A stretch of DNA of 36,146 nt from Candidatus Omnitrophota bacterium (GTDB taxonomy: Bacteria > Omnitrophota > Gorgyraeia > Gygaellales > Profunditerraquicolaceae): NCBI GenBank assembly GCA_029563245.1, contig JAKQSG010000094.1, positions 1-36,146 of the forward strand, given 5' to 3'. The notes beneath the pieces were generated by a model that searched no databases, was not told where the DNA came from, and worked only from the letters and a program-made list of their open reading frames with translations. The translations under genes were made by a program, and so were the position numbers. How positions within the stretch are numbered: position 1 is the stretch's first letter; each line of letters opens with the position of its first letter. Shown here piece after piece: positions 4,021-36,146 of the stretch.

Positions 4021-4023
4021 TTT

Positions 4024-6988: not shown

Positions 6989-6989
6989 C

Positions 6990-7346: not shown

Positions 7347-7376
7347 CTTTAAAACCCTCTCTTTGTGGCTACCTTT

Positions 7377-7403: not shown

Positions 7404-7463
7404 GGCTTATAGGATTCTGCCATACTTAAGCTATCCCCATACATATCAAAAGGTTGCGACACT

Positions 7464-8039
7464 TTATTTCAAAAATTGTGACAAGGGAGGCATAGGCATC
7501 CCCTTGAACATAAACGGCAAAACAAAAGAAACTATAATGATAAGTAGCGGGATCCAAAGATCCAACCCTATATTGCTATCTTGAAATTCTGCCTTGAAAT
7601 TATCATTAGTAAGAAAAAATAACTGTGTAGCCAAATAGAAAATAAAAACAAATAATATCAGAGCGTATATATTCATAAAATCCAAGGCAACCATGTCGTT
7701 TGAACTGACCTTCACAAAACCTGAGTACAAATACAGCGCCTCTCCAAGAATAATAGCTATGCTAGAAATTATGGCCATTTTCCTAGCGCGCTGGTCCAGC
7801 CGCAGCAATAATAATCCTGACTTGAAAAGAGACAAAGAAGCAATAAAGATTACGGCAATAGATATCCTATCCATAACAAATAACGCAAACCAGTGCGGAA
7901 GATTTCTAACCTGCCTGTCTGTCATCCACCCTACAAGCACCCCCAAAAGAAATGGTAATGCATAAAACAGGGAATAGAGCCCGCCCATTATGATATTCAT
8001 AACCCCGAAAAACTTAATTTCTAAAGACTTATTGCCCAT
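7464..8039 (-). CDS. Small polytopic membrane protein of unknown function
   Basis: 191 aa with about 5-6 hydrophobic helices and no motif I recognise. SD GAGGAGAGGG lies upstream of the ATG. It starts 48 nt after the giant-gene stop, with no promoter or terminator between them. Confidence 0.7.
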   Translation of the reverse strand: MGNKSLEIKFFGVMNIIMGGLYSLFYALPFLLGVLVGWMTDRQVRNLPHWFALFVMDRISIAVIFIASLSLFKSGLLLLRLDQRARKMAIISSIAIILGEALYLYSGFVKVSSNDMVALDFMNIYALILFVFIFYLATQLFFLTNDNFKAEFQDSNIGLDLWIPLLIIIVSFVLPFMFKGMPMPPLSQFLK

Positions 8040-8087: not shown

Positions 8088-11000
8088 CTAATTCAAATTC
8101 CGCATAGGCGGAGGCGTATACCGTATTGGCGGAATATATGTCGGTATTCTCGGTGTTATGCCGGGATTCACAAAATTACTGCGCGGCACAGTAATCGGCG
8201 CAAATTTCGGAACCGTAATGCTCGGAGCTCTAAACTTAATAGTAGGCGGCATAATTATCCTATTGTTATTATACACATTAAAATTTAATTGGCCAGAAGG
8301 AAGAGGCCTGAAATTATTTTGAAAAATCGCCCCCGGGAGCATACTTGCCCTAAAAGCCTGTGAGGAGAGCAATCCTTGATGAAGATAATAATTATCCGGT
8401 GCCCTAAACCTCTGCATTTCGCTTAATGCCGGGCTAATATTTATATTACCTGCCTGGCGAAAATGCCCTAAAGGCGCTACGCTATTAAAATTGTACATTC
8501 CAGGCCAACTCCCGACCCTAGGCCTATATATCCATCCTATGGGATTTGACTGTTTAATCATACGGTGAATTTGAGGCATATCCAAATCAGGAAACTTCAT
8601 TCTTATAAACCTATTACCCATGGAATAATCAAACCAATCATTATGCGACGTCTCCGGGATCCCTATGTTCCCTTTCACCCCTAGATTAACCGGGACAGAA
8701 GGAAAAGATAACCTGTCTGCAGGGGACCATAGATTTATTATTTTAACAGTCTCTTTATACTTGTTCTCCAAAAAAGAAACTCTGTGCAGCATATCAGGTG
8801 ATCCAAGACAAGATATATTAATCTTTATCCCTGCTTCTCTGGCTAATCTGAATGCCTCCGTGGCTTTCGGACTACCGCTAAAAATGGTAGTGCCGATTGG
8901 AGTGCCCCAGCTATGCCAATCCATATCTATATCCACACGCATTCTCGCGGCATCTCTTACATTCTCAAGAAAAAAATCCAAAACTCTGGACCGAGCTGAA
9001 AAAGTATCTTGAATATTCCCTGACCAGTTAAAGGCCCTGCTCGTAACCCCAATCCTCTCCAACATATCTTTCAAAGGATGCTTGTTAGACCAATCTATTT
9101 CCTGGTTCCTAGCTGTCACAAAAAGATAGAAATCATCGAATCCCGGAATTAATATCTGCATAGAACGTATCTTAACCGGGCCATGATTTATACCTTCATT
9201 CTTACCGCATTCCAATGCATAATTGGCATATCTCCTGGCTATTTCATCGCTATCAACCTTTGCGGCTTCCTTAATCGGCTCGGCTAACTCAAGGTGAGCG
9301 CAGACCTTGCTTCCTAAGGCCACAATCGTATCCCTGCGGACAAAAACATCCCTATCTTTTAAAAGCGGTAACATCGATTTTATTACTTCAGGCGTATCAA
9401 ACCTAGCTAAATTCGCCACCGCGGCCTGACGGACAAAAACAGACTCATCCTGTATCGTGGGAAGCAGAATTTCCGGAACGTTAGAATGCGTTGACTTACC
9501 TAAGGCTTCAACCGCGGCCTGGCGTACCTGCCAATGATCATCACGCAAAAACGGCCTTATCGTAAAGGTTAAATGAGGAGAGTCATGAATCCTCTGAGCC
9601 AAACCAGAAATTGCTGCCTGTCGAACCGGGAATTGCTCATCTTTTAATGCCTTAACCAATAAAGGAACCGTTTCTGAAGAATTTATCATGGCTAATCCCC
9701 GGATAGCTGAAAGGCGTACCGAAGGGTCGATATCGCTCGCCAAAGGAGAAAGAAGCGGCAGAGTGTTATGATCCACGAGTTGGCTAATGGAGAATACTGC
9801 CATTTGCTTTAAAGCGAGATCCTGGCTGTTTAAATACGGCTTTGCGAATTCAACAGCAATCGGACTCCCTGCTTGAGATAATCCCGATAAAATGCCTAAA
9901 CGAGTTTCTAAATCACCCCTGTCCATAAAACCTATAAGCTTACTCTTTAATTCCGGGTGATTATTTATCTGGGTTGATAGGACAACAGCTGCAGAAGAGG
10001 CAACTCTCAAAGATACATCACCCATCCTTTCAAAAACCTTATTGAATATCACTGGGTCATCAATTCTGGTATGAAGCGCTGCCACAGATACCTGCCTTAT
10101 CTCTTCCCTGCTGTCGCTCACCAGATCAGCAAGCTGATGCACCATTTTGTCATCCGCATTAAATGCTGACGATAAAATTGCAGCCTGTGCTTCTCTTAAA
10201 TTACCGCCCCTTATTATATTTCTTAATGCTTCCCTTGCAGCATTATCGTTGCTCTCCCCCAAAATACCTATATAAAGCAACCTAACGTCGCTATTTCTTT
10301 CTCTTTTTAATAATCTGGCGATTAAATCCGGTGCTTGGGTTTTATCAAACTTTCCGCCCCAAAAACCCAGGGCTGCTGTCATACGTACTAAATGGCTTCG
10401 GTCATTTAATCCACTGATGAGTGCTTCCCTCGCATCCAATCCGTTGAGCTGTGACAATATTGAAAGAGCAGTCATTCGGACTTCTTCAGCGTTATCTCTT
10501 ACCTTAGCAAGTGCGAGATTTAAAACCCTGTCACCCTCAAACCTATACAGGGCCGCCAAAGCTTTTGATCTTGTATTTGCTGATTTGGACTCTTGTATTA
10601 TATTTTCAAGATATACAGCAGCACGCTTATTTCCTGATACGCTTAACCCCGAAATTGCAATATCTACCGCATCGATTTTTTTGTCTTTCAATGCATCAAC
10701 AAAAATATCAAATAATCTCGGATCACTAAACATTAGTAAGCCCCGAAGACACTCCAAACGAACCGATCTGTCTGGATCAGCAGAATATTTAATCAATATT
10801 TCAAGCGCCTCTAGATCATCAAATATAGATAATGAATATGCAGCATATACCCGAACCGCAGAAATACTATTTGATTCCTTAGATAATAAATATTGCAAAT
10901 GACCTATAGCCGTGGGATCTTCCAACCGTGCTAACGCAAAGGCAGCTTGCATTCTTACATAATTCCTGATTTCATTTTGATCATCTCCGGAAGAGACAGT

Positions 11001-14000
11001 TCCTCTCGGGAAGAAATCATTTATATTATATCCTCCCTTCAAACCCTGCCCTAATACTAAACTACCGGCGGGATCCTCTAACATGGCAAGGCACCTGGCG
11101 GCATAAAAAGCAACATTAAAGTTTCTGCTTCTTACTAATTTCTGGTAGCATTTATACAAATCTTCTTGCGTTATCCCGGCCATCTTAAGGTGTTCAGTTG
11201 GCTCAAGCATAATATCGTCACCTAAATAACAATTCTCCAGAAAATATTTCTCTAACCCCTTTTCTTTTCCTTCTTCATTAATATTACTTATTGCTATTAC
11301 TTCTTTAAGCGAACGATAAAATTCCATTCTTCTTGCATCAACACTAATACAGCCGTTATTTACAAAAACGCTAATTCCTATTATGAACAAACTAAACCAA
11401 TACCGTAACCCATTAAACCACCCCCTAAATGCTGCGTCCACCTTACCTTTTCTACCGCCGAACTTAAAATAACCCAGAAATATAACACCCAATAACGATG
11501 ACGTTGGATATACTGTTATAACATCTGCGATAAAAGCGCAGATTGTAGTCCAATGAATTAAGGCGACTGAAACCATAAAAGCTGCCAAAGCGCCTAAAAT
11601 AAGCGCACCAACCAACGAATGGCCTGATTTATTATGTCCTTCCTGTAAACTCTTGTCCCCCAAGGGCTGCAAAGCGCGAGAACCGTACCCACAATGGATG
11701 TTGCCGTCTCTAGTGAGAATAAAGTCGCCGGTAAGAAAATGCTCCTGTGTAAACCTGACCCTTTCTTCTTCAGAATCCTCTTTTCCTTTAGATAAAATTA
11801 CGCCCTCTACCAAGCTTATCTCAAGAAAGGCCTTGCTTATATCGACCCCTTCTTGAAGCATATAGAACCTTGCCTTATTATCTCCGGGCAGATTTCTATC
11901 TAAGGCAAATATTATTTCAGCCCTGGCACCGCATCTCTTCTCTTTTAAGAATTCCCTCAGGTCCCCGAAAGATGGAGTCAAATCATAGCCGGGATGGTAA
12001 TGGTATGAAAGAATAACTCTCTGAGAATGGGAAAGGTCAGGATAATAAACACCTAAGGTACTAACGCTTCTATCTTCCTTTAAAGTTAAAATCCTATGCC
12101 CGCCGGTTAAATGGGTAGTTCGTATTGCGCCTTTTCTGCTTTCTCTCTCAACGATCCTGCCGCTTATTTCATAAAACCACGGAAGGCGCGGATTAATAAT
12201 TCTATGCCTGGCAATAAATTGGTTCAGGGGGAGCTTCTTGCCTTTTGCCACCACAACAATATTCCACAAAGGTACCCCTTCCTTAAAGCTTCTCTCTTTC
12301 GGATAAATTTCAAAGACCCCAAGCCCACGGACATTCAGCACCCCTTCGTAATCCCCGGTAATCTCTAAAGATAGCGGGACATCAAGTACCCCGCTATCCT
12401 GGAAAAAGGTTATAATACTATCGCCGGTTCTAAACAGATTGCGGCGGTTAAGATTATCCGCTATCGCTTTCGTATATTTGCTGCAAAAAAGGCCTTCGTT
12501 TGAAACTACCCCCGGAATGAAATTATTTTCGATTGCTAAAACCTCATCCGTAAAAATAGCTCTTCCAAAGCTCCTCTCCTGGGAGGACCGGAATGATTCC
12601 TTAAGCTTCAGGTAACCTGGGCTTGTTAAAAGATCCCCGGCGCTTTTGACCTCGATTGCAAATGAATGAAATTTGATATTGATAAAGGTGGCAAACCTTG
12701 ATATCTCGGCAATCGCCTTCTTATTTTGGGAAAGGAATGAAAGGGCGGGGCTTTGAATAAAGAGCTCTTCAATAAACAGGTCTATTGACGCTCCCTGGAT
12801 ATTCTGAACCCTCCATTCCCTTCCCTCCCGGTTAAAATAAAACCAATACCAGATTATCGCAGCGGTATTCAGATAGAAATCTTCTTCCCCTCTCCTGCTA
12901 TTAGCTATTGCCTCATCAGAGTTTATTACAATATCATCACCTTCTGTTTCAAAATGGCCGAATTCATGATTCCAGATGCTAGCCGTTAGGGCATCGGATA
13001 GCTTGATCTTCTTTTCGCTCCTGGGATTAAAGATATATTCCCCGTTTTCATTTAATTCAACTTTAATATCCAAATCATTTTCAATAATGCAACAAAGATC
13101 CTGTATAAACCTCTCCGGGGTAACAAAATTAATAAAATTTCCTTCGTTGTCAAAACGCATCTGAAGGGTCCACAAATTACATAATGCCTTTGGCGGCAGG
13201 ATTGCTAACCCACCTTCATTACCTAGGGCAATGGGCTTCAAATCAAAGGCATGATAAAGCTTGGCAATATCTTCATTCTTAGCTTTTCCGTCAAGATGGT
13301 AGTCAATGCGCGCAGCTGCAATAATTTTAAATAGAAAATCGTTCCGCTCGCTTAAAGGTATATACCTGGAGTTAATAATCGGAGGCTTGCGGTAAACATA
13401 ACTTAAAAGGACTCTTAATATATTCCTTCGGTTATGACTCTTTAAGTTATGGAATAATTTCCTAAATTCGGGCAGGCTAATAGCAATAAGGATAGTCTCT
13501 AAGGCCTTGAAACACAGGGTTGAATTCTTCTCAGAGATAAATACGGCCTGGTAGAGGCGGGCTTTCCAATAACGGGGAGCCCCGCGCACCAAGTTACTGC
13601 TTGCCGCCCATTCCTGGTAAGCCCGGTTAAATGCATTCTGCCTATCTACGGAGTGGTTGATAAAACTACCGTGCTTAATCATAAATTCATTTACTTCAAT
13701 TGCCGCTTCTATCATATTTCTTAATATGGCAAGCTTATCTAGCAATCCCTGGCTATTTTTCTTAACTTTCTTAGGGATCGCCAACCCGGGGAGAAATTCT
13801 AAACTACGATTAATCTCGTTACGCATACCGGTAAAATCAGGCTCGCTAAGAAATGGCCAACTTAATAATCTGGTCAGTTTATCCTGCATAGTAGCAAGAG
13901 AAGACGGATCAAAAACCTTGCCCTGGGCAAGATTATTAACAAAACCTATCCTCTTCTGTACCCTGCTTAGACGCATGCTTGCCTTTAACCGTAACTGTTG

Positions 14001-31600: not shown

Positions 31601-34600
31601 ATACGCTGCCTTATGAAGCACGGCCAGCGCGATCTCCGATATAGGCCGGGGTTCATTAAACCAATAAACCCTTATTCCCTTCTTAAGTAAAATATCCTTA
31701 GATATCTGCGCTATCTCCCTTGACCCCTTACGCACGTCAAAACCAACCACAACCCCCCTCTCCTGCAAGCCGTTTTTAACTATATAGTTTGCCACAGCCA
31801 AAGTATAACGGCCGGCTACATCCTGATTAATCCTGTTGGGACCGGGCAAATAAGGAATTAGTTCCCCATCCAGGTCATTTTCCAATCCGCGCTTACCGCG
31901 TATACCGGCAGTCCCAAACTCGACCTCTTCTCGATAACTCTCCATAAGCAGATCCCAACGCTTATTTTCTATCTCTCTAACCAACTCATTCTTTAAATAA
32001 GGATTATACCCTCTATCGCCCAGGTTATCGCTTACGCTTAAAATAGCAAAACCTACTTCACGCAAAGTAATCTTGCCTTCGCGGTGCATCTGAGATAAAT
32101 ACCTATAAAATTCGCGCAGCTGTTGGGGTATCTGCCTTTCTCCGCGCAGCACAAGAAAAACCTCACCTACAAAACTACCTTTACCCTTGCCGGTAAAAAT
32201 ACCGGTGGCGCTCTCCTCATTATCCTTGGGTACATAATAAAAATCCGGTGCCTTTTTATTTTCATTAATATCGTAAAGATTGGCTAGATTAATAAAATAA
32301 GAGGCATCCCTGAAAACCTTTTTCTCCTTAAATCCTTTTTCTAAGAAATCGAGGACGTCGAGACGGAATTGCCTACCTATTAATATATAGACTTCCAATT
32401 CTGCCAAGCCTGCGTCAAGTTCTTCATCGAAATCAGCCAGGTCGCTTAATATTCTAGGGGTATGCTTATTTTCGTGAGCAAGTATAGCAAATAGTATCGC
32501 TGCCTTTGCCCGGAAGAAATGATTAAGCTTTAACCGCGAAGCGGCAGGCTTGAACGACTCTTCTATCACCTCTTCAAATATAGAATCTAAATAAATAGTA
32601 TTGTTTAATATACAAGCGAATCTTCCGAAATTACGAGAGATAGCAATATTAATACCCCTTCCTGCAAGTTCATCTAAAGAAATAGATAATATGCGCCTTA
32701 AGAGACCTGTATAGCAGGCGCCTGGCCCCAGATATATCCTGCCTTTATCCTTTCCTATCAAATCAATTAACTGGTCTTTTATATCTAAAAGCCTATAAAC
32801 CTTACCGGTTACATTAGCCTGCGCAAATATATCAGCCTCATTCTGAGCAAGATGATTATGGTAGCCGATAAAAACACTCTTCCCCGCAGCCCCATGATTA
32901 GTTATTATCTTCTTTACTGCGTAGCTAACCAACGAAGCAATAGAAACCTTAAACTCCTCAGGAAACTCCGAGGGCAAAGCAACCGATTTTGTCACGAATA
33001 AGCTCTGCGGAGGCATTAATCGCTTTTTATCATTTATATATTTTGGATCAATGCCATAACCCTTATCTAAGAATTTTACGGCATCAGCCGCTTTTATCCC
33101 GGTCTCAAAAGGCTTTAACCCTCTTGCTAATTTCGCATGGATTACTCCGGAAAATACCCTCCCCCAAGATAAACCCAGCTCCTTAACCAATACATAAGCC
33201 GCAGCCAGTAATGTGCCCCCGGAAGAAGTTTCATCGTCAATAACAAAGGCCCAACAATCACGAAGGTCTACCCCGCCTACTGATAATATTTTCTGCTTGT
33301 CTTCACCTAAGATATAAGGCGGTATGCGTACTTCCCTTGGACTTATCCTGACCTTATCCATATACCCAGAATATACCTTGATTCCCGAAGCCGGATAATT
33401 ATCCTTGATATATTTCTCTAAAAGCTGTGCGGCCTCCCGGACATAATTGGAAGCTCCGTCATCGGGTGATAATATCAAGATAGGGTGGCGGATAAACTCT
33501 TCAAGCTCTCCCTTAAGCCCTAACGTGCTATGAAGCCAATCGAACATCTTCTCGGCCACCTGCACAAATGCATTCAGGTTATAAAGGCCGATGCCTGAAA
33601 AATCGATTCTACCGCTACCATTACCGTAATGCACATTTAAAACAAAATGATTATCCGTCAAGGCATTGATCACTTTAAGCATAGTAAAAGCACTTACGCC
33701 CTCTCCGTCCTTAAACACCTTATCCTGCCTGGAATACCCCGCATAAGTATTAATCAACGAAATGCTGGCAACCCCTTCACGGCGTAAAGCTGCAAGCATA
33801 AGCCATAATTCCGCAATATCGAGATTATTCTCAGTACTATGCAACAATACTATATTCTTACCCTTTACCCCTTCGGGAATATTTATAGTCCAGGCAAAAG
33901 GATTATTGAATTCCTTGCGGATACCGACCCTTTTCGGGGTAGCATTAATGACCTCGGCAGCTCTGATTGCATCATACTCCAGACGGCTATGCTGGTATAA
34001 AATCATATCTACTTGCACAGAATCGCTTTTTCCACTTACCTTCGCCTCAGAGCCCGAATAAGGGCTTGAGGCAGATCTCTTGTCAGAATAAACCACAGTA
34101 TCATAGAAGATAGCAAGTATATCCTCCAGGATATCTACTCCACGAGGACTATCTAAAGAAAGATTGATTTTATCTGCACCGTATCTTCTTAAAGAATCCA
34201 TCAACAAAACTACCTCCACAAGATCATCCGCTGATTCAATTTTATAGGAGACATCTACCTGCTTGCCCTTTAGCGCTAGGGGATTAAGAATTCTTAAATA
34301 TATTTCGCCGTCAGGAAATTTAGATGTTGCCACTCTAATCTGGACATCCTCAGCCTTGACGTTTAATTTAGAAGGAAGGTCTACAGAAATCCATCCGCAG
34401 CTGTCTCCCCAGGGAGAACGGAAAGAACCTTTACCATCCAAGACAAATAAAACAGCATAATCCATCTTTTGAACATCCGCTTGGGGGAACAAATCCTTCA
34501 GGCTCTCTTGCATATCATAAAGGCGCATGATCCCGTCTTCTCCGGAACTATCATAGCTACGGTTCCAGATAGACGGAGAGAAATAAATCTTCCCTCCTTC

Positions 34601-36146
34601 CGGATTCACCTGTTTCTTTAAAGACTCCGCGTGTTTCTCCAATTCCCCGCGGTAGATCAAAATGTTCATGGAAAAAACTATATCAGCCGGGCCGAAATTA
34701 TCCTTATCCGCATCCCCAAAGACAAATACTACATCCTGGTCATTACGGTTTTTTTCTGCCTCAATCAAAGCCGCGAAATCACGGTCTATTCCAACTACCG
34801 TCAAATCAACAAATCCCTCTTTGCGGTAATATTCCGCCATCCCTCTGCTAGCCTCTCCGTATTGGCATCCTATATCCAAGATACGCAGGGCGCTCTTCTT
34901 CGGCCAGGGAGAAAGATCTACTGACTTGACAATCTTTGCAATCTGCTCTGATTGTGCGCTTGAAATATCTTTAGAGATTAACGGGATAATTTTTCTAACG
35001 ATTAAACTACGTACCAATAAGGAATCATCATTCAATGCAGATAAAAGCAGCGCGGAGAGTATATCATCCGGTTTTAAGGCGAATAACTCTTTCAACATCA
35101 AGGCAGACTTTGCCCTGAGCCAAGCATCCTTTTCTCCCTGCAGTATAGAGATTAGAAGAGGAATCCCTTCTTCAGAGAATTGGGTAAAGAAGGCTATCGC
35201 CCTTTCCTTCTCTCCCTGGTTAGCCTTACGACTTGAGCCAATATCCTCTATACGGTAGTAAGAATTACGGACTATATCCTTTAATAAGAGCGCCGTGTCA
35301 TCCCGGGCTTTTTCTTCATCAATTATGCCTCTTGCGATATGTGAAATTAATTCATGATAGAGGATTTTCAACTGTAATTGCTCCAAGGCGAGCCCCTCGC
35401 CTAATAGGTCTTCAGAAGAAATAGTGAAGAAATATGGATTTAGGTATACAGTCCTGGTGGGGATATCGCAGGCAGCGACCTTACCTTTTGTAAGCCTTGA
35501 ATCGTTGGTAATGATAAGTGTCCAGTTGGCAATCTCTGGAGGAGCACGGCCTAAAACATGCTCTAATTCTGCCAGGCGTTTAAGAATAACTTCGGCCTGG
35601 GCTTTAGTTAATTCCTTAGGCAGCTGGTTTTCTACCTTAAAACCTTTTACCTCTATCGCCTGTGAACTCCAGCCTGCCCCAAGCTGACCCTCTGATACCC
35701 TATTAGCCGCATCAGGTAATGGTAACGGGTAAGTACTTAAGGGAAATCCGCTTACAGACTTATTTAACTCCGGAATTACTACTGAAGGGCGCCCGTCAAA
35801 GTACACTGCCTCCCATCTCCTCCCGTCATGGATGAGTACTCCGGCATTCCTGCCAAAGCCGGGTTTAGGGAATAAATTCACATTAACCACCCGGGCACCA
35901 GGGCTAAAACGTATATCATAACCTTCCTTATGCCCCACTACCATAGGTAGAAGATATATTTCATTTATACGGCTTAGCTCTCCGTCAAAACAAGCCCACA
36001 TAAGGCCTCCCGGCATATAATCTGTTTCTCCGTATAATTTTGGCCCAAAATGGGCGTTGCCACGGTTAAAGATTACATCCGAAAAATCATTATTTTCTAC
36101 TCCCCTAACCAACCGGGAATTAAACTCTGCGGCTATATGCTCCAGC
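19574..36146 (-). CDS. N-terminal part (at least 5,523 codons, 5' end possibly outside the window) of the same giant mosaic protein: repeated HELxSH module, SAM-MTase, PRPP-synthetase-like, phosphohexomutase, HAD-IIB, kinase-like, cupin PGI, APH-type kinase, GT2, HD-GYP-like, GHKL-like, metallophosphoesterase, M50 N-terminal half
   Basis: The ORF track gives 19574-36112 with a TTG start. The same frame has no stop from 36112 to the window edge (LEHIAAEFNSR-LVRGVENN...). Motifs I translated: ILDIGCQYG, YAGYSRQDK, VIDDETSSGGT, TASHNP/DPDADR/GFEESNG/RPSGTEPK, FDIDGTL, FDIKPENYG, TEGHHH...EVY plus PPGYQHITIN, HGDLSLGNV, FVNDGDDSG/YTDGD, ADRPYRKG, GDLHG/GNHD/GHTP, MHEFAH. Confidence 0.9.
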   Translation of the reverse strand, partial: LEHIAAEFNSRLVRGVENNDFSDVIFNRGNAHFGPKLYGETDYMPGGLMWACFDGELSRINEIYLLPMVVGHKEGYDIRFSPGARVVNVNLFPKPGFGRNAGVLIHDGRRWEAVYFDGRPSVVIPELNKSVSGFPLSTYPLPLPDAANRVSEGQLGAGWSSQAIEVKGFKVENQLPKELTKAQAEVILKRLAELEHVLGRAPPEIANWTLIITNDSRLTKGKVAACDIPTRTVYLNPYFFTISSEDLLGEGLALEQLQLKILYHELISHIARGIIDEEKARDDTALLLKDIVRNSYYRIEDIGSSRKANQGEKERAIAFFTQFSEEGIPLLISILQGEKDAWLRAKSALMLKELFALKPDDILSALLLSALNDDSLLVRSLIVRKIIPLISKDISSAQSEQIAKIVKSVDLSPWPKKSALRILDIGCQYGEASRGMAEYYRKEGFVDLTVVGIDRDFAALIEAEKNRNDQDVVFVFGDADKDNFGPADIVFSMNILIYRGELEKHAESLKKQVNPEGGKIYFSPSIWNRSYDSSGEDGIMRLYDMQESLKDLFPQADVQKMDYAVLFVLDGKGSFRSPWGDSCGWISVDLPSKLNVKAEDVQIRVATSKFPDGEIYLRILNPLALKGKQVDVSYKIESADDLVEVVLLMDSLRRYGADKINLSLDSPRGVDILEDILAIFYDTVVYSDKRSASSPYSGSEAKVSGKSDSVQVDMILYQHSRLEYDAIRAAEVINATPKRVGIRKEFNNPFAWTINIPEGVKGKNIVLLHSTENNLDIAELWLMLAALRREGVASISLINTYAGYSRQDKVFKDGEGVSAFTMLKVINALTDNHFVLNVHYGNGSGRIDFSGIGLYNLNAFVQVAEKMFDWLHSTLGLKGELEEFIRHPILILSPDDGASNYVREAAQLLEKYIKDNYPASGIKVYSGYMDKVRISPREVRIPPYILGEDKQKILSVGGVDLRDCWAFVIDDETSSGGTLLAAAYVLVKELGLSWGRVFSGVIHAKLARGLKPFETGIKAADAVKFLDKGYGIDPKYINDKKRLMPPQSLFVTKSVALPSEFPEEFKVSIASLVSYAVKKIITNHGAAGKSVFIGYHNHLAQNEADIFAQANVTGKVYRLLDIKDQLIDLIGKDKGRIYLGPGACYTGLLRRILSISLDELAGRGINIAISRNFGRFACILNNTIYLDSIFEEVIEESFKPAASRLKLNHFFRAKAAILFAILAHENKHTPRILSDLADFDEELDAGLAELEVYILIGRQFRLDVLDFLEKGFKEKKVFRDASYFINLANLYDINENKKAPDFYYVPKDNEESATGIFTGKGKGSFVGEVFLVLRGERQIPQQLREFYRYLSQMHREGKITLREVGFAILSVSDNLGDRGYNPYLKNELVREIENKRWDLLMESYREEVEFGTAGIRGKRGLENDLDGELIPYLPGPNRINQDVAGRYTLAVANYIVKNGLQERGVVVGFDVRKGSREIAQISKDILLKKGIRVYWFNEPRPISEIALAVLHKAAYCYIYITASHNPKSDTGFKIGNEIGAQLFGVQRLAIIREIALVSMDSVDDINTLPLGQDNKPVMMLGPDEDFDKYFSSKIRSHLLVPGKPTTLKVLYDPVFGTGQAVLPGILKDLGYEYSVFSEHEGFNGNFPDHRLVDGNGRPLSPDPADKRVLGPAIEYATEKGFDIVLATDPDADRCGIAFKDNQGNWQVMKANDLWAFLLWSRIEFMHDLASEGKLGKAYQGLMRDGFVMATWVTTDLIERIARAYGFHVRRPPVGFGKIAEESLDEIIMRDWFNSYAFDFESYGDRYKEGLGNIIGDMHIPSMKQAIEEIFSFARARILGGFEESNGVSLGGHTLEKDGLLAAVVMLELFEYVRSKGFSIWDAYIKLWRTFGCFVGANEQYSLAGPTAKVDRDKVIKKVEEIYRQARSASKATIAGKVIKEAHRGVDITEPKFNEPGYKFIFEDGSWLIIRPSGTEPKMRFYTQAEVKAAEFEGRKDEDLLAIRSLEEQKVTNFALEAIDEIKKRTFQLVGDSVKVGPIKARPRNIAMFDIDGTLALRRKPLEDSMINQVRGLLDKGMLVGINTGNMLDEANIARIVEPFKDHSDNFIIAANSSTQVFYFENGVRREDLVYRKGLPLDKAKVFSIIRECIAMVSLEESIPSEKFLFEDRITRVVVRIEELKEDTELSLKIRQALAQHIRDLFESKGIFGIEVVLEGKTTLAVTPAGINKAEALKYIYAKYGIQPQNIIYFGDEFGQEGNDLAVTGIQGIKVFSSGPPADAPPSVVALGEGINFTESALLEMNAYIKEKGFDKLRKFLDSQVFINKVRKEVEQISLVEKDLHLPEELRRRVYEFLPHLKVYFSGVMPDKVVITGYDFNSGREIVNLYALHAGETRYFRQVFYKRGYSLGFSYLDGYNRLAGCLVEMYRHFSLHQFADDFREAGIDVDKIIEMIGMAFRNCLKEEVFSSRTAGADTNHIYLNRDNTIIVKDLKAPAKIAFRLPGITVNAMESYQLAQKYHGHLAIRYLTFDDLEINVVDEEGRVSHETVKRAVVQKFVSVLFEEGLWDFDLKARRCHGILAEAIEEGDLDKAKLLIDCWLLSIRAKILRGIINFDIKPENYGYDPSVGRVGALDLGQVFKWHDFIPEQADLFICELQKARERVCDWAKACNKNKYGWEEELRKYIDNSVKDIFRIREDFSFDITKNVKDLRAETDYEELEEDFRDLSGRRISGLEVCFAGGEKVRGESRKLVARYLIDSGIQIKNAELVLARIGFKRAMQEYRLLSHSYDPIVLRGASYISISEGDYVGLKIREMFSTPSLQLVLSTGRYLGKDLSGEDMMRLKREIAKSLIRYYTPAQDVYRVIAERFGLDSHLYVSHRLSMERELSKIGFQSLSDEDKRFLSELLDIKDDEINLMQCIIAFDSLFERRLYPRFVTLKDFKIKPDGGMIRIEIASFGGLIQKIRESEVIIAINEGLGIVFEDIFLALEEYLGIRGVVLFLEAAYYQTKNAHPNIAEILSLRLRYLFKEYNSSGFFPQLLKDTPNINNPNAYPLPVSAKVQEASVNKFGKNWQSGAVEVAGFNLRGKFSSELIRGREEVIIKLLEELEVILGRAPPSLYVWRLLSTNDFNFTQGNVAACDIAARTIYIHPYFFELSGYLQKKIFYHELKSHLINYEFDEAKALADTARFFKTLDLSAQVGLPCFVDPKDMEVLYGPQARIWVQPWYKTFGANTMSQAPLWKSLMMAYEYTDSQGNITKQPDLTRYGDPNEVLYCGQQGPYWDDQKLWDSIKAHNLRPDVTVLPAGTIPAFLNGVRYEEYIRTEGHHHKTNLPEVYENNYGRNIFLLFKVRHNYPEEDSSIDKPGYEEIEDVMAVFAEPGDHVLFPPGYQHITINIGNTPFVMTDWVSTNAQSSFKYIKRHNGAPYWVVKGKDGNPEFIPNPRYKNIPLIRLVKPADEIPEFGFKKGKPMFDIVRSGQIEKFAFLNESGEPQKYNRVYRNAFVPYQPQAEPINNKVALWRSHSTKVNDLRTEQVDIEEKLSIALSEYDIGASEVSQVTYEFLRGGIENRRPVLIHAPKGDFVLKFITDSRRKAEFVISVIQRAISFGIPVPLVYKNRGGEYFTKIGSWYYTLEDYISSGIELNFSQATPKHFYSLGRLTALLHNAFLGFRASGSKPELSPQDIITAFSDFENLEKKLQNNPFLEEGELIFLNFARFIKEQMQHLLKEMSDVSYNSLPSSILHGDLSLGNVKWDGDSVIALFDWEKARSSQPRIGEFKNTLLAGGKGVGRKYSRENLIAMLKGYQLYTKNKLSRKELESIPNVLGIGTFGWDAARWFILSLDLLNNSSEKADAVEALMLEFSRMMQDFNKPWWGEAVDLLTGESLRRVLLSEDRASRLGIIFSECKTIDAKLNLLHLFAVDTYRDPEIRAVLSDQAICALLSKALAISLNRNDAKDIAVFLKELVSDPSKGILPEARMFIDSYLTVFNIHDPLEIAVCISLWRGQAKYPDPPLGRGWFKLKTEQFFREFLSVNPLVKGRFIFVNDGDDSGQGQQKTVDVLRGILSRSEYVDLRDKICLYSLSAEDKVAMGSVKHGALAAGMQIAADQGADIIMYTDGDPSAHLGLTGLLLEGIVNKGDDLVWGSIRKPGAIVSLRKFTRRLGTVGFNAWVRFLYKDLRFIRDNQRSFKAFRRKVIKRISPIGILSADESGCLKVSFNHDFVYGFAGDVEWLGRAAALRYRLREMPILWIDSPETSTMSFWSSAFSMGISALRSRIYLNKLHGRPGRRRELFLSMIRKATERIILSTAGNLASFVSINSVSLARGKTYKTSLTQAARVTLGLKNRTWNTRLMLDCFGSEKRIRAVSRLDREAGRNIEAKVLYRLRDQRGSVPLQARLFCRGNIFFNGNYYLNNEIYLPNPGLWELEVFLRYFDGGWVSLGKRYVKIERGPGRKRGSFILALKKAFSFTGLLRNKQAIGLPSVAGGDRSFAAALKLIGVSPKEDGVITNSDILKIKGIAGLYRSVFDMKGLSGDLDHLIRHIYRGRIIAVEIAEILNLSRRDIDIIAIAFTLYDLGKIFNSEIWELISSDKKISRDENDPQRKLINAHAGYSVEIINELQLDVSEEVLSLVLNHHHPQAIKDAKLRFLGELIYWADIAEIMLADRPYRKGSELNLSVEDLILFLNRQKNNNALLGIKNNEAIFQATVAVANDETFRALYSYPELSVWAIIIIANLYSQNDSSHQSYPAHMNPAGVDSLVRNPSEGEFGNIIDYLGGINALMREGLVLGMDKIAIDYLLPFPAEVVNGILRINPNTLRGPPEQLRAIFSGHEFYHLVNPGLSEERVRERTLEYLRDNHLLSSHIKFLEDNSIGLRPDLGWLNYLKRNRTEEKRRVESQIFIQDCLNLMRIWNNADGLNSDKQKILTEAFVERLKEDGYLIFSGGMYILPEAVFALDGLIEGKDLERLRELINALSINVGRHGDDLGKIVIFFNKNHNNLYICAMDKGKGFVTSNAHPFKNHAFKGLAGLKIYSKGRVWDQDKETWSDSNIKGGVSGSSVFCMYSLQTDSELPRLNEFIKAVRLGVYQDRAVVDLRKAPGDFEIIIIGDLHGRVNKFDALLNHRRRITVEGKEILEDSVLEKIRNKKAALFILGDAIHATPDVRVEMGDFIKWAKTGVKRQDLEGLVVDLYSNPDSSIALMRRIMDLKISNPDNFYYILGNHDLINYHWSKSGPCGFIIDQSIPYRKALEDRFGSKYLDLYRKFVEASPVLLIADNLVAAHAGPVKGRFKLQKIRNLSTTNLKNSMLVNLLMGRFCEYSLEGEEVFSYSQDDLSSFLEALGYDSKSCWFIVGHTPTQNGFFKRVLFNHYLISGCEREFGYFSYRNGNGEFVGVQDEGDAVKMHAGVYFSKFNEGFTLFKISQVPVKLHWSFFFALGLAAGNGFLALAFLFSIFTLVTMHEFAHIKSAAKYGIGATQILLTALGGVATLESCGFTPRQEKRIAFAGPLFNLSLGVVLFCPCFSLLLLQHGILD
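19577..19646 (-). other. Frame-change junction: 70 nt in which both giant reading frames are open; contains coding-strand T5 (19609-19613) and T4 (19621-19624) runs
   Basis: Frame A stops at TAG 19574-19576. Frame B (-1 relative to A) is open from just after TAA 19647-19649. One added T in the T4 run gives ...GVVLFLSLFFIAPFTAW.... A -1 slip on the U run gives ...LFCPCFFIAPFTAW.... Either product is a plausible continuous transmembrane helix of an M50 domain. Confidence 0.7.
26578..27001 (-). repeat. Copy 2 of the same intragenic module
   Basis: YPLPVSAKVQEASVNKFGKNWQSGAVEVAGF...LGRAPPSLYVWRLLSTNDFNFTQGNVAACDIAARTIYIHPYFF...IFYHELKSH...FDEAKALADTARFFKTL. HELKSH is at 26642-26659. Confidence 0.8.
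35272..35731 (-). repeat. Copy 1 of an intragenic ~140-150-aa protein module (YPLP...EV.GF...LGRAPP...TND...G.VAACDI..RT.Y..PYFF...YHEL.SH...DE.KA..DTA)
   Basis: Translated by hand. HELISH is at 35339-35356. By eye it is about 40% identical to copy 2. The two copies share an almost identical nucleotide core, atatcgcaggcagcgac, encoding VAACDI. Confidence 0.8.

What the first reader, a model, noticed from the sequence alone, without database searches (positions are those of the whole stretch)
8088..36146. Mosaic mega-gene (28,059 nt visible, more than 9,300 codons) fusing housekeeping sugar-phosphate enzymes, signalling modules, protease-type domains and several membrane-spanning clusters
Seen in sequence: minus-strand coding is continuous from the right edge to 8088, apart from one frame change near 19.6 kb.

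The motif-supported domain order is:
- HELxSH module, 35272-35731
- HEAT-like, 34930-35230
- class-I SAM methyltransferase, 34570-34905
- PRPP-synthetase-like, 33100-34340
- HENKH, 32462-32476
- alpha-D-phosphohexomutase, 30170-31930
- HAD-IIB phosphatase, 29330-30020
- kinase-like, 28150-28760
- second HELxSH module, 26578-27001
- cupin phosphoglucose isomerase, 25860-26560
- APH-type kinase, 24640-25520
- GT2, 23330-24060
- HD-GYP-like, 22130-22560
- HEFYH, 21665-21679
- GHKL-like, 21100-21290
- metallophosphoesterase, 20050-20900
- M50, 19290-19900
- two transmembrane pairs, about 17780-17925 and about 16800-16930
- NagB/6PGL-like, 15370-16050
- PAS, 14950-15290
- transmembrane cluster
- about 1.7 kb of helical sequence
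- HEFGH, 12954-12968
- JAMM, 11700-12260
- transmembrane cluster
- HEAT array, 9220-11110
- hydrolase-like domain and Pro/Asn-rich tail

Established knowledge: each of these families is normally a stand-alone 20-60 kDa protein. Giant bacterial genes are usually NRPS/PKS or repetitive adhesins. I saw no adenylation, ketosynthase or carrier motifs, and no long tandem Ig-like repeats.

Inference: this is either a membrane-tethered multi-enzyme assembly or a polyprotein. Very large mosaic ORFs have been reported from uncultivated lineages such as Omnitrophota. The AT-rich composition would fit that, but taxonomy cannot be decided from this window.
Basis: partly seen in the sequence, partly recalled or inferred. 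Interest (0 to 1): 0.92.

Follow-up and report, generated by a model that had tools for sequence, protein, structure and literature searches.

The report
Omnitrophota giant multi-enzyme membrane gene
This is a real gene of more than 9,350 codons from an uncultivated Omnitrophota bacterium; it strings sugar-phosphate enzymes, regulators and protease-like modules onto one membrane-anchored chain, a kind of giant gene already described, and it carries a previously unnamed protease-like module that could show where such giants are cut.

Summary
The minus strand is open from the right edge (36145) to a stop at 19574-19576. A second frame runs from 19622 to the stop at 8088-8090.

The single -1 frame change lies inside one Peptidase_M50 domain. 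Its halves score 24.5 and 33.3 bits; joined, the domain scores 64-65 bits. An independent assembly of the same locus calls a product that reads through this point. So this is one gene of at least 9,352 codons, cut at its 5' end by the window edge.

- PRPP synthetase, SAM methyltransferase, phosphohexomutase I-IV, HAD-IIB, cupin PGI and APH
- HD, metallophosphoesterase, M50, NagB, PAS and the HEAT array

GT2 and GHKL are weak. JAMM, the kinase-like region and the C-terminal hydrolase rest on motifs only.

The nearest relatives (81% and 66% identity) are fragments from Candidatus Omnitrophota MAGs. The downstream PilZ, sugar ABC transporter and glycosidase genes match the synteny published for Omnitrophota giant genes. 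It is a new member of a known kind.

The added point is the 'HELxSH' element. It is a roughly 165-aa zincin-like module found in only 124 of 1.84 billion protein clusters, mostly long proteins. It borders shuffled enzyme cassettes and is a candidate self-processing protease.

The parts
19574..36145 (-). Upstream reading frame of the giant gene: 5,523 codons, open at the window's right edge, stop at 19574-19576
   Evidence: the frame-1 translation has no stop up to the edge
8088..19622 (-). Downstream reading frame of the giant gene: 3,844 codons, true stop at 8088-8090
19574..19649 (-). Interval in which the -1 frame change (one base missing) must lie; contains T4 and T5 runs; sits inside the M50 domain
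   Evidence: the product of Logan contig SRR21285873_50048 (4,118 aa) reads through it
35792..36145 (-). C-terminal part of a metallophosphoesterase-like domain, cut by the window edge
   Evidence: aligned at 81% identity to P0001 and 53% to P0003, both carrying PF00149
35231..35734 (-). Zincin-like 'YPLxVP...HELISH...DExxAxxDT' module, copy 1
34577..34915 (-). Class I SAM-dependent methyltransferase domain
   Evidence: Pfam Methyltransf_31/23/25/11
33104..34360 (-). PRPP synthetase (ribose-phosphate diphosphokinase)-like domain; PRPP loop DDETSSGGT at 33212-33238
   Evidence: Pfam Pribosyltran_N E 7e-15; NCBIfam NF002095 E 1e-38
32462..32476 (-). HENKH motif, in a block conserved in P0002, P0046 and P0119
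30167..31921 (-). alpha-D-phosphohexomutase, domains I-IV; all four signature loops intact (TASHNP, DPDADR, GFEESNG, RPSGTEP)
   Evidence: Pfam PGM_PMM_I-IV; NCBIfam Arch_GlmM E 2e-28
29333..30013 (-). HAD-IIB phosphatase (DIDGT; GDEFGQEGND)
   Evidence: Pfam Hydrolase_3; TIGR01484 above its cut-off
28244..28312 (-). Protein-kinase-like catalytic motifs DIKPEN and DLG (motif level only); the block 2302-3115 aa is conserved in P0028
26531..27004 (-). Zincin-like module, copy 2 (HELKSH), 44% identical to copy 1
25865..26293 (-). Cupin-type glucose-6-phosphate isomerase (TEGHHH; PPGYQHITIN)
   Evidence: Pfam PF06560 E 6e-20
24854..25546 (-). APH-type phosphotransferase (HGDLSLGN; DWE)
   Evidence: Pfam APH E 2.5e-13; NCBIfam homoserine kinase/CotS-like
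23552..23884 (-). GT2-like region (weak; DGD at 23804-23821)
   Evidence: Pfam E 0.13; PDB 5mlz E 0.32; conserved in P0002 and P0069
22244..22561 (-). HD domain
   Evidence: Pfam PF01966, 24.2 bits against cut-off 22
21602..21814 (-). HEFYH module, a distant relative of the HELxSH module with canonical HExxH spacing
   Evidence: hhalign E 1.3e-4, probability 53%; conserved in P0033, P0038 and P0021
21077..21283 (-). GHKL ATPase-like region (weak)
   Evidence: Pfam HATPase_c E 0.028
20267..20863 (-). Calcineurin-like metallophosphoesterase (GDLHG, GNHD)
   Evidence: Pfam Metallophos E 6e-8
19314..19882 (-). Peptidase M50 (site-2-protease type) membrane domain; HEFAH at 19784-19798 and NLLPVFPLDGG at 19482-19514; bisected by the frame change
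17781..17918 (-). Transmembrane hairpin 1
   Evidence: hydropathy
16800..16925 (-). Transmembrane hairpin 2
   Evidence: hydropathy
15333..16067 (-). NagB / 6-phosphogluconolactonase-type sugar-phosphate isomerase domain (GVGADGH)
   Evidence: NCBIfam NF001684 E 2.7e-15; Pfam E 7e-4
14973..15284 (-). PAS sensor domain
   Evidence: Pfam PAS/PAS_9; TIGR00229
14688..14915 (-). Transmembrane cluster 3, with lead motif LGEGHNQSG
12954..12968 (-). HEFGH motif (no homologues found)
11961..12176 (-). JAMM/MPN+-type motif set (EISGRIV ... HYHPGYDLTPSFGD), motif level only
   Evidence: no HMM or PDB hit
11340..11648 (-). Transmembrane cluster 4, 35% identical to cluster 3, lead motif LQEGHNKSG
9312..10958 (-). 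HEAT-repeat array
   Evidence: Pfam HEAT_2 E 1e-50, 8 stretches
8091..9194 (-). C-terminal hydrolase-like region (WHSWG at 8904-8918) and Pro/Asn-rich tail; shared with the C-terminus of the 7,327-aa Omnitrophota protein P0021
   Evidence: no Pfam or PDB hit
7464..8039 (-). 191-aa gene with no family match, directly downstream
6302..7346 (-). Two PilZ-domain genes (118 aa and 228 aa)
3172..6197 (-). Sugar-type ABC importer: solute-binding protein and two permeases
863..3172 (-). 769-aa glycoside-hydrolase-like TIM-barrel protein
   Evidence: Pfam Glyco_hydro_2_C and Glyco_hydro_72

Best explanation
**Shown.**
- This is one very long gene of an uncultivated Candidatus Omnitrophota bacterium. 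At least 9,352 codons are visible, and probably more than 10,400 exist in total.
- It belongs to the giant-gene class already described for that phylum.
- The visible product starts with about 5,400 residues that have no transmembrane segment. This stretch carries sugar-phosphate and nucleotide-precursor enzymes with intact catalytic motifs: PRPP synthetase, phosphohexomutase, HAD-IIB phosphatase, cupin phosphoglucose isomerase, an APH-type kinase and a GT2-like domain.
- Mixed in with these are a methyltransferase, HD, GHKL-like and metallophosphoesterase domains.
- An M50 intramembrane-protease domain and four further hydrophobic clusters then tie the chain to the membrane. Between and after these clusters lie a NagB-type isomerase, a PAS sensor, a JAMM-like motif, a HEAT array and a conserved C-terminal hydrolase-like end.
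- The frame change at 19.6 kb is a one-base indel inside the M50 domain, not a gene boundary.

**Inferred.**
- It takes sugars brought in by the adjacent ABC importer and released by the adjacent glycosidases, and interconverts them (Glc-6-P, Fru-6-P, Glc-1-P, GlcN-6-P, PRPP).
- The PAS, HD and PilZ elements provide control.
- The enzyme blocks behave as cassettes. They are bordered by a conserved zincin-like module and are shuffled between related giant proteins.
For: **One gene.**
- The ORFs are continuous.
- The M50 halves score 24.5 and 33.3 bits, and 64-65 bits once joined, covering profile positions 1-217 of 221.
- The independent Logan contig SRR21285873_50048 differs at 4 of 18,039 bases. 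Its called product of 4,118 aa runs past the point where the window's frame is closed.
- Another assembly has a different one-base deletion elsewhere in the gene.

**Real locus.**
- The same locus was assembled in at least 9 samples from four sources.
- Codon usage is homogeneous, with r = 0.81-0.93 among all segments and the neighbouring genes.

**Domains and taxon.**
- Intact catalytic motifs were read directly from the sequence.
- Taxon assignment rests.
- The synteny matches published Omnitrophota giant-gene loci.

**Cytoplasmic side.**
- No hydrophobic segment above 1.73 occurs in the first 5,400 residues.
- The enzymes need ATP, PRPP and sugar phosphates (established biochemistry).
- The complete relative P0021 (7,327 aa) starts with a hydrophilic N-terminus and has hydrophobic clusters only near its C-terminal end.
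- Nielsen & Lui report that 46% of long Omnitrophota proteins are transmembrane-only, with a cytoplasmic bulk.

**Cassettes.** The block-wise homology occurs in a different order in P0002, P0020, P0028, P0046, P0069 and P0079.
Against: - The 5' end of the gene is outside the window. A signal peptide or earlier transmembrane segments cannot be excluded.
- No topology predictor was available, and the number of helices in clusters 3 and 4 is ambiguous.
- West-Roberts et al. predicted similar sugar-phosphate domains to be extracellular, though they doubted that themselves.
- The DNA of the junction in the read-through assembly could not be retrieved, so the absence of the frame change there is inferred from the product length.
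- No expression or activity data exist for this gene.
Confidence: 0.65

Rival explanations
1. Self-processing polyprotein. The chain is cut after translation into separate enzymes and membrane pieces by its own embedded metalloprotease-type elements. These are the two HELxSH zincin-like modules and their HEFYH relative, the M50 domain (acting on the transmembrane hairpins) and the JAMM-like domain. This would resemble the way MARTX toxins release shuffled effector cassettes through an internal protease (own knowledge).
For: - HExxH occurs 4 times and HExxxH 3 times, against 0.23 expected for each. The JAMM motif occurs once against 0.014 expected.
- The module folds with high confidence (pLDDT 88.8, pTM 0.84).
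- In three Foldseek searches its best named matches are all zincin-type: selecase, abylysin, jannalysin, HtpX, BlaR1, YbeY, SprT and IrrE.
- 121 of 136 copies keep HExxxH and the following DExxAxxDT helix.
- The module is confined to 124 protein clusters out of 1.84 billion. Most are thousands of residues long, with up to 4 copies each.
- It borders enzyme cassettes. P0028 has a module on both sides of the kinase-like block. In P0005 and P0007 NagB follows directly, in P0009 a methyltransferase follows after 40 aa, and in the window cupin PGI follows.
- It is among the best conserved segments between otherwise divergent giants.
- West-Roberts et al. state that cleavage points are unknown.
Against: - All structural matches are weak (E 0.02-1, TM 0.3-0.55).
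- The HExxxH spacing is not the canonical zincin motif.
- YbeY, one of the matches, is a nuclease rather than a protease.
- Loss of HExxxH does not go with loss of the upstream YPLxVP segment (Fisher p = 0.74).
- No proteomic evidence for cleavage exists.
- The apparent stand-alone copies sit on contigs of 0.7-2.6 kb and may be fragments.
Confidence: 0.25
2. Extracellular prey-attack effector. The visible enzymes are displayed outside the cell, as proposed for Archaeovorins, and act on host or prey surface glycans.
For: - West-Roberts et al. place most annotated domains of Archaeovorins, including the HEAT repeats, outside the cell, and link the giant genes to cell-wall degradation.
- Nielsen & Lui find SP+TM topology for the 147-kAA multi-enzyme giant.
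- Glycosidase and solute-binding genes lie next door.
Against: - PRPP synthetase, APH-type kinase, phosphohexomutase and HAD phosphatase use ATP and phosphorylated intermediates that are not available outside the cell (established biochemistry).
- No glycoside hydrolase, lectin, dockerin or adhesin domain was found within the gene.
- There are 5,400 residues without a membrane pass.
- The relative P0021 has no signal-peptide-like start.
- The cited authors themselves doubt the extracellular call for these domains.
Confidence: 0.12
3. The frame change is real in this strain. The locus would then be either a freshly broken pseudogene or two genes: a 5,500+ aa soluble protein ending in half an M50 domain, and a 3,800-aa membrane protein.
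For: - The window sequence as given has the break.
- A TTG at 19622 and an ATG at 19529 could serve as starts.
- Strain-level differences exist between assemblies.
Against: - The break bisects a single catalytic domain whose two halves both keep their active-site motifs.
- It lies in T-runs, which are typical indel-error sites.
- A near-identical assembly reads through it.
- No gene product matching the downstream frame from 19622 is on record.
Confidence: 0.2
4. Programmed -1 ribosomal frameshift joining the two frames.
For: The shift is -1 and occurs in a U-rich stretch.
Against: - The overlap holds no X XXY YYZ heptamer (TTTT and TTTTT only).
- The read-through assembly lacks the shift.
- A different assembly has an unrelated indel elsewhere in the gene.
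- No relative covering this region was found for comparison.
Confidence: 0.03
5. Chimeric assembly that stitches unrelated genes into one frame.
For: No independent assembly of window positions 20443-36146 could be retrieved. The block order of the window is not reproduced in any relative.
Against: - 5,523 codons run without a stop. Random joints would break the frame two times in three.
- Codon usage and GC3 are uniform, and GC and skew are uniform.
- Relatives bridge most individual junctions (P0001, P0020, P0002, P0046, P0028, P0079, P0069).
- The 3' 18 kb was assembled independently.
Confidence: 0.03

Closest known systems
Omnitrophota giant ORFs / 'Archaeovorin'-type giant proteins (type: the 39,678-aa protein of Velamenicoccus archaeovorus LiM; Seymour et al. 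2023, PMC10066038; West-Roberts et al. 2023, 10.1101/2023.11.21.568195)
   Same: - The phylum, judged from the nearest relatives.
- An ORF longer than 20 kb with several transmembrane clusters.
- HEAT repeats, methyltransferase, glycosyltransferase-like and peptidase-type content.
- The occasional phosphoglucomutase and glucose-phosphate isomerase domains reported for this class.
- Downstream PilZ genes, a solute-binding protein, ABC permeases and glycosidases.
   Different: - The visible length (9.4 kAA) is far below the >30 kAA set studied by West-Roberts et al.
- No SecA_DEAD, NUDIX, glycoside hydrolase, C39 or S8 domain occurs in the visible part.
- The 5' end and the upstream type-II-secretion-like locus are outside the window.
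Class 1 'multi-enzyme metabolic cluster' long proteins of Omnitrophota (Nielsen & Lui 2026, 10.64898/2026.06.07.730766)
   Same: - Many distinct Pfam families tile the chain with none dominating.
- Their sugar-metabolism module (PGM/PMM) and their regulatory module (methyltransferase, HATPase-like, HAD, HD) are both present.
- There is HEAT scaffolding.
- A transmembrane-only architecture with a cytoplasmic bulk is plausible.
   Different: - Their catalogue starts at 10 kAA; here only 9.35 kAA is visible.
- They do not describe PRPP synthetase, cupin PGI, M50 or JAMM content, internal HExxH-type modules, or cassette borders.
MDD5130115.1 (P0021), a complete 7,327-aa Candidatus Omnitrophota protein annotated 'phosphoglycerate kinase'
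   Same: - Both contain a PRPP-synthetase-like block, an HEFYH-type block and one HELxSH module.
- Both have the same C-terminal end: hydrophobic clusters, then a HEAT array, then an HSxG hydrolase-like region, then a Pro-rich tail.
   Different: - The block order and most of the enzyme content differ.
- Identity is only 23-46% per block.
- No M50 match to the window was found.
Minigluzincins and other minimal zincin-fold proteins (selecase 4qhf, abylysin 4jiu, jannalysin 4jix; SprT, IrrE, HtpX, YbeY), compared with the HELxSH module only
   Same: - The predicted fold is a small mixed sheet plus an 'active-site' helix carrying His-Glu...His, followed by a helix with conserved acidic residues.
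- These proteins are the best structural matches in three searches.
   Different: - The matches are weak (E >= 0.018).
- The motif is HExxxH, not HExxH.
- The module has an extra conserved N-terminal YPLxVP segment and LGRAPP loop.
- It has no Pfam family.
- It occurs embedded and repeated in giant proteins rather than as a free ~110-aa enzyme.
MARTX toxins and eukaryotic multifunctional enzymes such as AROM or CAD (functional analogies, from own knowledge, not tested)
   Same: - Like MARTX toxins, it has mosaic cassettes in one huge chain, possibly released by an internal protease.
- Like AROM or CAD, it covalently links consecutive metabolic enzymes.
   Different: No homology was found. MARTX cassettes are secreted toxins cut by a cysteine protease. 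AROM and CAD are soluble and far smaller.

Membership tests
Omnitrophota giant ORF (Seymour et al. 2023: ORF > 20 kb in an Omnitrophota genome) | Single ORF longer than 20 kb | tested here: met
   28,058 nt are visible as two frames joined by a one-base indel inside one M50 domain
Omnitrophota giant ORF | Encoded by a member of phylum Omnitrophota | tested here: met
   Indirect. The best relatives (81%, 66%, 50% identity) and nearly all named module-bearing proteins come from Candidatus Omnitrophota MAGs. No marker gene lies in the window.
Archaeovorin-type giant protein (West-Roberts et al. 2023) | Length above 30,000 aa (gene > 90 kb) | not testable with these tools
   The 5' end is outside the window. 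Only 9,352 aa are visible, with at least 1,100 more inferred from P0001.
Archaeovorin-type giant protein | Numerous transmembrane regions | tested here: met
   Five hydrophobic clusters by hydropathy; no dedicated predictor was available
Archaeovorin-type giant protein | Characteristic domain set (glycosyltransferases, methyltransferases, glycosyl hydrolases, peptidases, NUDIX; HEAT repeats) | tested here: inconclusive
   Methyltransferase, HEAT, M50 and a weak GT2 are present. No glycosyl hydrolase or NUDIX occurs in the visible part.
Archaeovorin-type giant protein | Divergent SecA_DEAD domain; N-terminal C39 or S8 peptidase | tested here: inconclusive
   None was found in the visible 9,352 aa; the N-terminal part is missing
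Archaeovorin-type giant protein | Downstream PilZ genes followed by solute-binding protein, ABC permeases and glycosyl hydrolases | tested here: met
   compared with section 11 and Fig. 7C of the paper
Archaeovorin-type giant protein | Upstream type II/IV secretion-like locus | not testable with these tools
   The upstream region lies beyond the right edge and no longer contig could be read
Class 1 multi-enzyme metabolic cluster (Nielsen & Lui 2026) | At least 10 kAA, many distinct Pfams, none dominating by copy number | tested here: inconclusive
   At least 12 distinct families and only HEAT repeated. The length threshold is reached only by inference from P0001.
Peptidase family M50 (site-2 protease) | HExxH in a membrane helix plus the NxxPxxxLDG motif; profile match above the Pfam cut-off | tested here: met
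   HEFAH and NLLPVFPLDGG are present. After frame repair the score is 64-65 bits against a cut-off of 27.2, covering profile 1-217 of 221.
alpha-D-phosphohexomutase superfamily | Four domains and four loops: phosphoserine TASHNP, metal DxDxDR, sugar GEESG-type, phosphate RPSGTEP | tested here: met
   Pfam PGM_PMM_I-IV all above their cut-offs, and all four loops are present
Zincin metallopeptidases (for the HELxSH module) | HExxH zinc-binding motif on the active-site helix | tested here: not met
   Both window copies and 121 of 136 copies overall have HExxxH, one residue longer. The related HEFYH block has HExxH.
Zincin metallopeptidases (for the HELxSH module) | Zincin fold (sheet plus active-site helix plus a helix bearing the third ligand) | tested here: inconclusive
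   The model is confident (pLDDT 88.8). The best matches are minigluzincins, SprT, IrrE, HtpX and YbeY, but with E 0.02-1 and TM 0.3-0.55.
Zincin metallopeptidases (for the HELxSH module) | Metal-dependent peptide-bond hydrolysis | not testable with these tools
   needs biochemistry
JAMM/MPN+ metalloproteases | E...HxHx7SxxD motif and a profile match | tested here: inconclusive
   The motif is present (EISGRIV; HYHPGYDLTPSFGD; 0.014 expected by chance). There is no Pfam, PDB or homologue match.
NRPS/PKS megasynthases | Adenylation, condensation, ketosynthase and carrier domains | tested here: not met
   None appears in the Pfam or NCBIfam scans of all tiles
Repetitive giant adhesins | Long tandem arrays of Ig-like, cadherin or similar repeats | tested here: not met
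   No such Pfam hits; internal repeats are limited to HEAT, two modules and two transmembrane clusters; TRF finds one 34-nt repeat

The most novel reading that the evidence does not exclude
The 'YPLxVP...LGRAPP...HExxxH...DExxAxxDT' element is a previously unnamed zincin-like protease family that is essentially private to Omnitrophota giant proteins. It marks and cuts the borders of enzyme cassettes. On this reading the giants are bacterial self-processing polyproteins, and their cassettes can be shuffled as units.
Probability: 0.22. Interest if true: 0.8.

Novelty: new member of a known kind. Interest (0 to 1): 0.5.

Why it matters
Giant Omnitrophota genes are among the longest known, yet nobody knows whether their products act as single chains or are cut, or on which side of the membrane the enzyme domains work.

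This window adds a well-supported example. Twelve enzyme or regulator families are confirmed, several with intact catalytic motifs. The chain contains about 5,400 residues without a membrane pass. The locus was assembled independently in many samples.

The window also yields a concrete handle: a short, strongly conserved, zincin-like module. It occurs in only about 124 protein clusters out of 1.84 billion, is often repeated, and lies next to enzyme cassettes that are shuffled between relatives. If the module is a processing protease, it gives the missing cleavage points and makes the polyprotein question testable by proteomics or by expressing one module with its flanks. If it is not, it is still a marker domain for finding fragments of such genes in fragmented assemblies.

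Tried and rejected
A 4,998-aa query timed out.

**Attempts to read the junction in another assembly**
- An exact look-up of the downstream-frame product found nothing.
- An exact 29-mer scan of JGI metagenomes found nothing.
- A protein-guided scan of the same collection found nothing.
- A protein search across the M50 region returned only one distant metallophosphoesterase hit.
- Absence of the frame change elsewhere therefore rests on the length of a called product.

**Source contig.** The genome-contig scan returned only the 81% relative, not the source contig.

**Regions with no match**
- The HEFGH-JAMM-transmembrane region has no homologues and no Pfam or PDB match.
- The kinase-like block and the C-terminal domain have no PDB match.

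**Profile comparisons.** Comparing the module with the HENKH, HEFGH and HEAKKH regions gave nothing significant; only HEFYH did.

**Test for co-loss.** Loss of the YPLxVP segment does not track loss of the HExxxH motif (p = 0.74).

**Readings rejected**
- NRPS/PKS and repetitive adhesin: no such domains or repeats.
- RNA elements: none.
- Programmed frameshift: no slippery heptamer, and the shift is not shared with the other assembly.
- Chimeric assembly: uniform codon usage and an unbroken frame.
- 'Stand-alone' small module proteins as evidence for an independent enzyme: not accepted, because they sit on contigs of 0.7-2.6 kb.

Full report

Yes. Two minus-strand ORFs cover the interval. One is open from the right edge, with its first full codon at 36145. 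It runs 5,523 codons to a stop at 19574-19576. The other runs from 19622 to a stop at 8088-8090, 3,844 codons. The downstream frame is closed by TAA at 19647-19649, so the frames can only be joined within 19574-19649. That stretch contains TTTT and TTTTT runs. Moving from the upstream to the downstream frame needs a -1 shift, which is the same as one base missing from the sequence.

**2. The frame change is not a gene boundary.**

- Pfam finds the first 91 profile positions of Peptidase_M50 at the end of the upstream frame (24.5 bits, below the cut-off). It finds positions 159-217 at the start of the downstream frame (33.3 bits).
- Joining the frames by adding one T to either T-run gives a single M50 match of 65.3 or 64.2 bits. 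In one version it covers profile positions 1-217 of 221. HEFAH and NLLPVFPLDGG are both intact.
- The same locus occurs in many independent assemblies: Logan SRR21285873, SRR21285875, SRR21285878 and SRR29782968; NCBI GCA_020047475.1; JGI 3300010346 and 3300010355; ENA ERZ27249658, ERZ27249650 and ERZ795059.
- The 51.5-kb Logan contig differs from the window at 4 of 18,039 overlapping bases. Its giant-gene product is 4,118 aa and runs to the contig end. That is 274 residues beyond the point where the window's downstream frame is closed, so this assembly reads through the junction.
- I could not retrieve the junction DNA itself, so this last step is an inference.
- A JGI contig carries a different one-base deletion, in a CCC run at window ~13925, which splits the gene there.

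Sporadic, assembly-specific indels fit sequencing or assembly error or rare strain variants. They do not fit programmed frameshifting. I treat the locus as one gene of at least 9,352 codons.

**3. Domain content.**

Twelve families are recovered by HMMs at his positions:
- SAM methyltransferase
- PRPP synthetase (NCBIfam E 1e-38)
- phosphohexomutase domains I-IV (Arch_GlmM E 2e-28)
- HAD-IIB
- cupin glucose-6-phosphate isomerase (E 6e-20)
- APH-type phosphotransferase
- HD
- metallophosphoesterase
- M50
- NagB-type isomerase (E 3e-15)
- PAS
- a HEAT_2 array (E 1e-50)

Catalytic signatures can be read directly from the sequence and are intact in several of these domains:
- phosphohexomutase: TASHNP, DPDADR, GFEESNG, RPSGTEP
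- HAD: DIDGT and GDx8D
- PRPP synthetase: DDETSSGGT
- cupin PGI: TEGHHH and PPGYQHITIN
- APH: HGDLSLGN and DWE
- metallophosphoesterase: GDLHG and GNHD
- NagB: GVGADGH

Other calls are weaker:
- GT2 (Pfam E 0.13; PDB dolichol-phosphate mannose synthase E 0.32) and GHKL (E 0.028) are weak leads.
- JAMM rests on EISGRIV plus HYHPGYDLTPSFGD, with 0.014 such motifs expected by chance. It has no Pfam, PDB or homologue support.
- The kinase-like block has DIKPEN and DLG only.
- The C-terminal 'hydrolase' has WHSWG only.
- No NRPS/PKS or adhesin-type domains, tandem repeats or RNA families were found.

**4. Membrane layout.**

By hydropathy, no segment in the first ~5,400 visible residues exceeds 1.73. 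Five hydrophobic clusters follow:
- the M50 domain
- two tight hairpins (17781-17918 and 16800-16925)
- two mutually related clusters, each led by L(G/Q)EGHN(Q/K)SG (14688-14915 and 11340-11648; 35% identical)

The helix number in the last two clusters is ambiguous. The side of the membrane for the segment between them, and for the HEAT array, is therefore unresolved.

**5. Whose gene is it, and is it complete?**

- The best relatives are partial proteins from Candidatus Omnitrophota MAGs: P0001 at 81% identity and P0002 at 66%.
- P0001 extends at least 1,100 residues upstream of the window's edge. That extension contains a glycosyltransferase-like end, an HDVLGH element, an APH-like region and the metallophosphoesterase whose tail is the first thing visible in the window.
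- The gene therefore probably exceeds 10,400 codons.
- Codon usage and GC3 are uniform along the gene and match the neighbouring genes. GC and skew are also uniform.

**6. Surroundings.**

Downstream on the same strand lie:
- a 191-aa orphan gene
- two PilZ genes
- a solute-binding protein and two ABC permeases
- a glycoside-hydrolase-like TIM-barrel protein

In the longer Logan contig these are followed by another glycosidase-like gene and a ROK kinase. West-Roberts et al. report exactly this arrangement as conserved downstream of Omnitrophota giant genes: PilZ, then solute-binding protein, transporters and glycosyl hydrolases.

**7. Comparison with what is known.**

- Seymour et al. (PMC10066038) found ORFs longer than 20 kb in most Velamenicoccia genomes and in other Omnitrophota classes.
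- West-Roberts et al. defined Archaeovorin-type giants. These have HEAT repeats, glycosyltransferases, methyltransferases and peptidases, and less commonly phosphoglucomutase and glucose-phosphate isomerase domains.
- Nielsen & Lui defined a 'multi-enzyme metabolic cluster' class. It has a sugar module (PGM and others) and a regulatory module (methyltransferase, HATPase, HAD, HD) with HEAT scaffolding. They found that 46% of long Omnitrophota proteins are transmembrane-only, with a cytoplasmic bulk.
- The window's gene fits this kind. The length threshold, SecA_DEAD or C39 domains and the upstream secretion locus cannot be judged, because the 5' part is missing.
- Neither preprint mentions polyproteins, HExxH modules or frameshifts. 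West-Roberts et al. state that cleavage points are unknown.

**8. What is new: the HELxSH module.**

- The two copies in the window (35231-35734 and 26531-27004) are 44% identical. They have no Pfam match.
- A profile of five copies, searched against 1.84 billion cluster representatives, finds only 124 proteins (78 at E <= 1e-10). Most are thousands of residues long, with up to four copies each.
- Six of ten proteins looked up carry organism names. Five are Candidatus Omnitrophota. The sixth is filed in a Bacteroidales bin on a 5.5-kb contig. The small 'stand-alone' hits sit on contigs of 0.7-2.6 kb and are not reliable.
- Across 153 copies the conserved features are:
  - an N-terminal YPLxVP segment
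  - LGRAPP
  - T.G.VAAC
  - RT.Y.HPYFF
  - Q..ILYHELISH
  - DE..A..DT
- 121 of the 136 copies that cover the motif keep HExxxH.
- AlphaFold models are confident: pLDDT 82.7 with 5 sequences, and 88.8 (pTM 0.84) with 33 sequences.
- In three Foldseek searches the best named matches are all zincin-type:
  - selecase, abylysin and jannalysin (minigluzincins)
  - HtpX, BlaR1 and deuterolysin
  - YbeY
  - in the viral library, SprT, IrrE-like and 'peptidase'
- These matches are weak, with E between 0.018 and about 1 and TM between 0.3 and 0.55.
- The HEFYH block aligns to the module (hhalign E 1.3e-4, probability 53%). The strand, the HE..H helix and the following acidic helix are in register.
- The HENKH, HEFGH and HEAKKH regions do not align significantly.
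- I conclude that the module is a zincin-like fold with an atypical HExxxH spacing. Protease activity is inferred, not shown.

**9. Cassettes.**

Blocks of the window protein recur in other giant fragments, but in other orders:

| Window residues | Content | Relatives (identity) |
|---|---|---|
| 265-1085 | HEAT, methyltransferase, PRPP synthetase | P0020 (50%), with a module after it |
| 1066-2316 | HENKH, PGM, HAD | P0002 (66%), where APH-GT2 precedes it; P0046 (43%) |
| 2302-3115 | kinase-like | P0028 (39%), with a module on both sides |
| 3162-3514 | cupin PGI | P0079 (73%) |
| 3506-4348 | APH, GT2 | P0069 (44%) |
| C-terminal end | HEAT array, hydrolase-like region, tail | the C-terminus of the complete 7,327-aa protein P0021 (27%) |

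In several relatives an enzyme domain starts directly after a module. NagB does so in P0005 and P0007, and a methyltransferase does so in P0009. The module is usually among the best conserved segments between two giants.

**10. How it most likely works.**

Shown: one gene, intact enzyme motifs, membrane anchors, and transporter, glycosidase and PilZ neighbours.

Inferred:
- The transmembrane-free enzyme array sits on the cytoplasmic face. Its enzymes need ATP and phosphorylated sugars, and the complete relative P0021 has no signal-peptide-like start.
- It interconverts imported sugars among Glc-6-P, Fru-6-P, Glc-1-P, GlcN-6-P and PRPP, close to the importer.
- PAS, HD and PilZ (c-di-GMP) provide control.

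I put this at about 0.65 overall. Within that, I rate identity as an Omnitrophota giant gene at about 0.9, and the cytoplasmic metabolon reading at about 0.5.

The main rival addition is self-processing at module borders by the zincin-like modules, M50 and JAMM (about 0.2-0.25). Other rivals:
- an extracellular effector role for these domains: about 0.12
- a real strain-level break of the gene: about 0.2
- programmed frameshifting: about 0.03
- a chimeric assembly: about 0.03

**11. Verdict.**

It is a new member of an already described kind, so the surprise is moderate. The module and the cassette borders are the part worth following up.

Noticed in passing
window 12876-12957: Four clustered differences separate the window from three other assemblies (L007, L008, L010). 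They lie directly beside the HEFGH motif, and one changes GDD to GND. The rest of the 18 kb overlap is identical.
   Followed up: partly
L009 position ~1303 (window ~13925): The JGI 3300010355 contig has a one-base deletion in a CCC run that splits the giant gene into 450- and 1,933-aa calls. Frame breaks in this gene differ between assemblies.
   Followed up: yes
window 14688-14915 and 11340-11648: A membrane module occurs twice, at 35% identity. It has the lead motif L(G/Q)EGHN(Q/K)SG followed by 3-4 hydrophobic helices. No relatives were found among the 128 module-bearing proteins.
   Followed up: partly
window 6302-8039: A 191-aa gene with no family match and two PilZ-domain genes follow the giant gene directly. 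The 191-aa protein is found with identical sequence on 23 or more contigs from many samples.
   Followed up: partly
L002 15395-21305 (beyond the window's left edge): The locus continues with a 379-aa gene, a second glycosidase-like gene, a 538-aa gene and a ROK-family kinase. This completes an import, hydrolysis and phosphorylation set next to the giant gene.
   Followed up: no
window 8091-9194; P0021 residues 7000-7327: The C-terminal end is shared with the C-terminus of a complete 7,327-aa Omnitrophota protein. It consists of an HSxG hydrolase-like region and a Pro-rich tail with PPxxxxVP-type repeats. It may be a common terminal anchor or export signal.
   Followed up: partly
P0008 (MFA4998333.1): A fragment with three copies of the module is filed under a Bacteroidales MAG on a 5.5-kb contig. 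This is probably a binning error rather than a second phylum.
   Followed up: no
module copies in P0028, P0045, P0072, P0077, P0079, P0080, P0085, P0091, P0095, P0105, P0112, P0116, P0117 and others: 15 of 136 module copies have lost the HExxxH motif while keeping the rest of the fold signature, which suggests inactive structural copies.
   Followed up: partly
window 33700-34280 (protein residues 622-662 and 757-797): There is a short internal repeat within the PRPP-synthetase-like region, and Pfam reports two Pribosyltran_N stretches. This hints at a duplicated N-domain.
   Followed up: no
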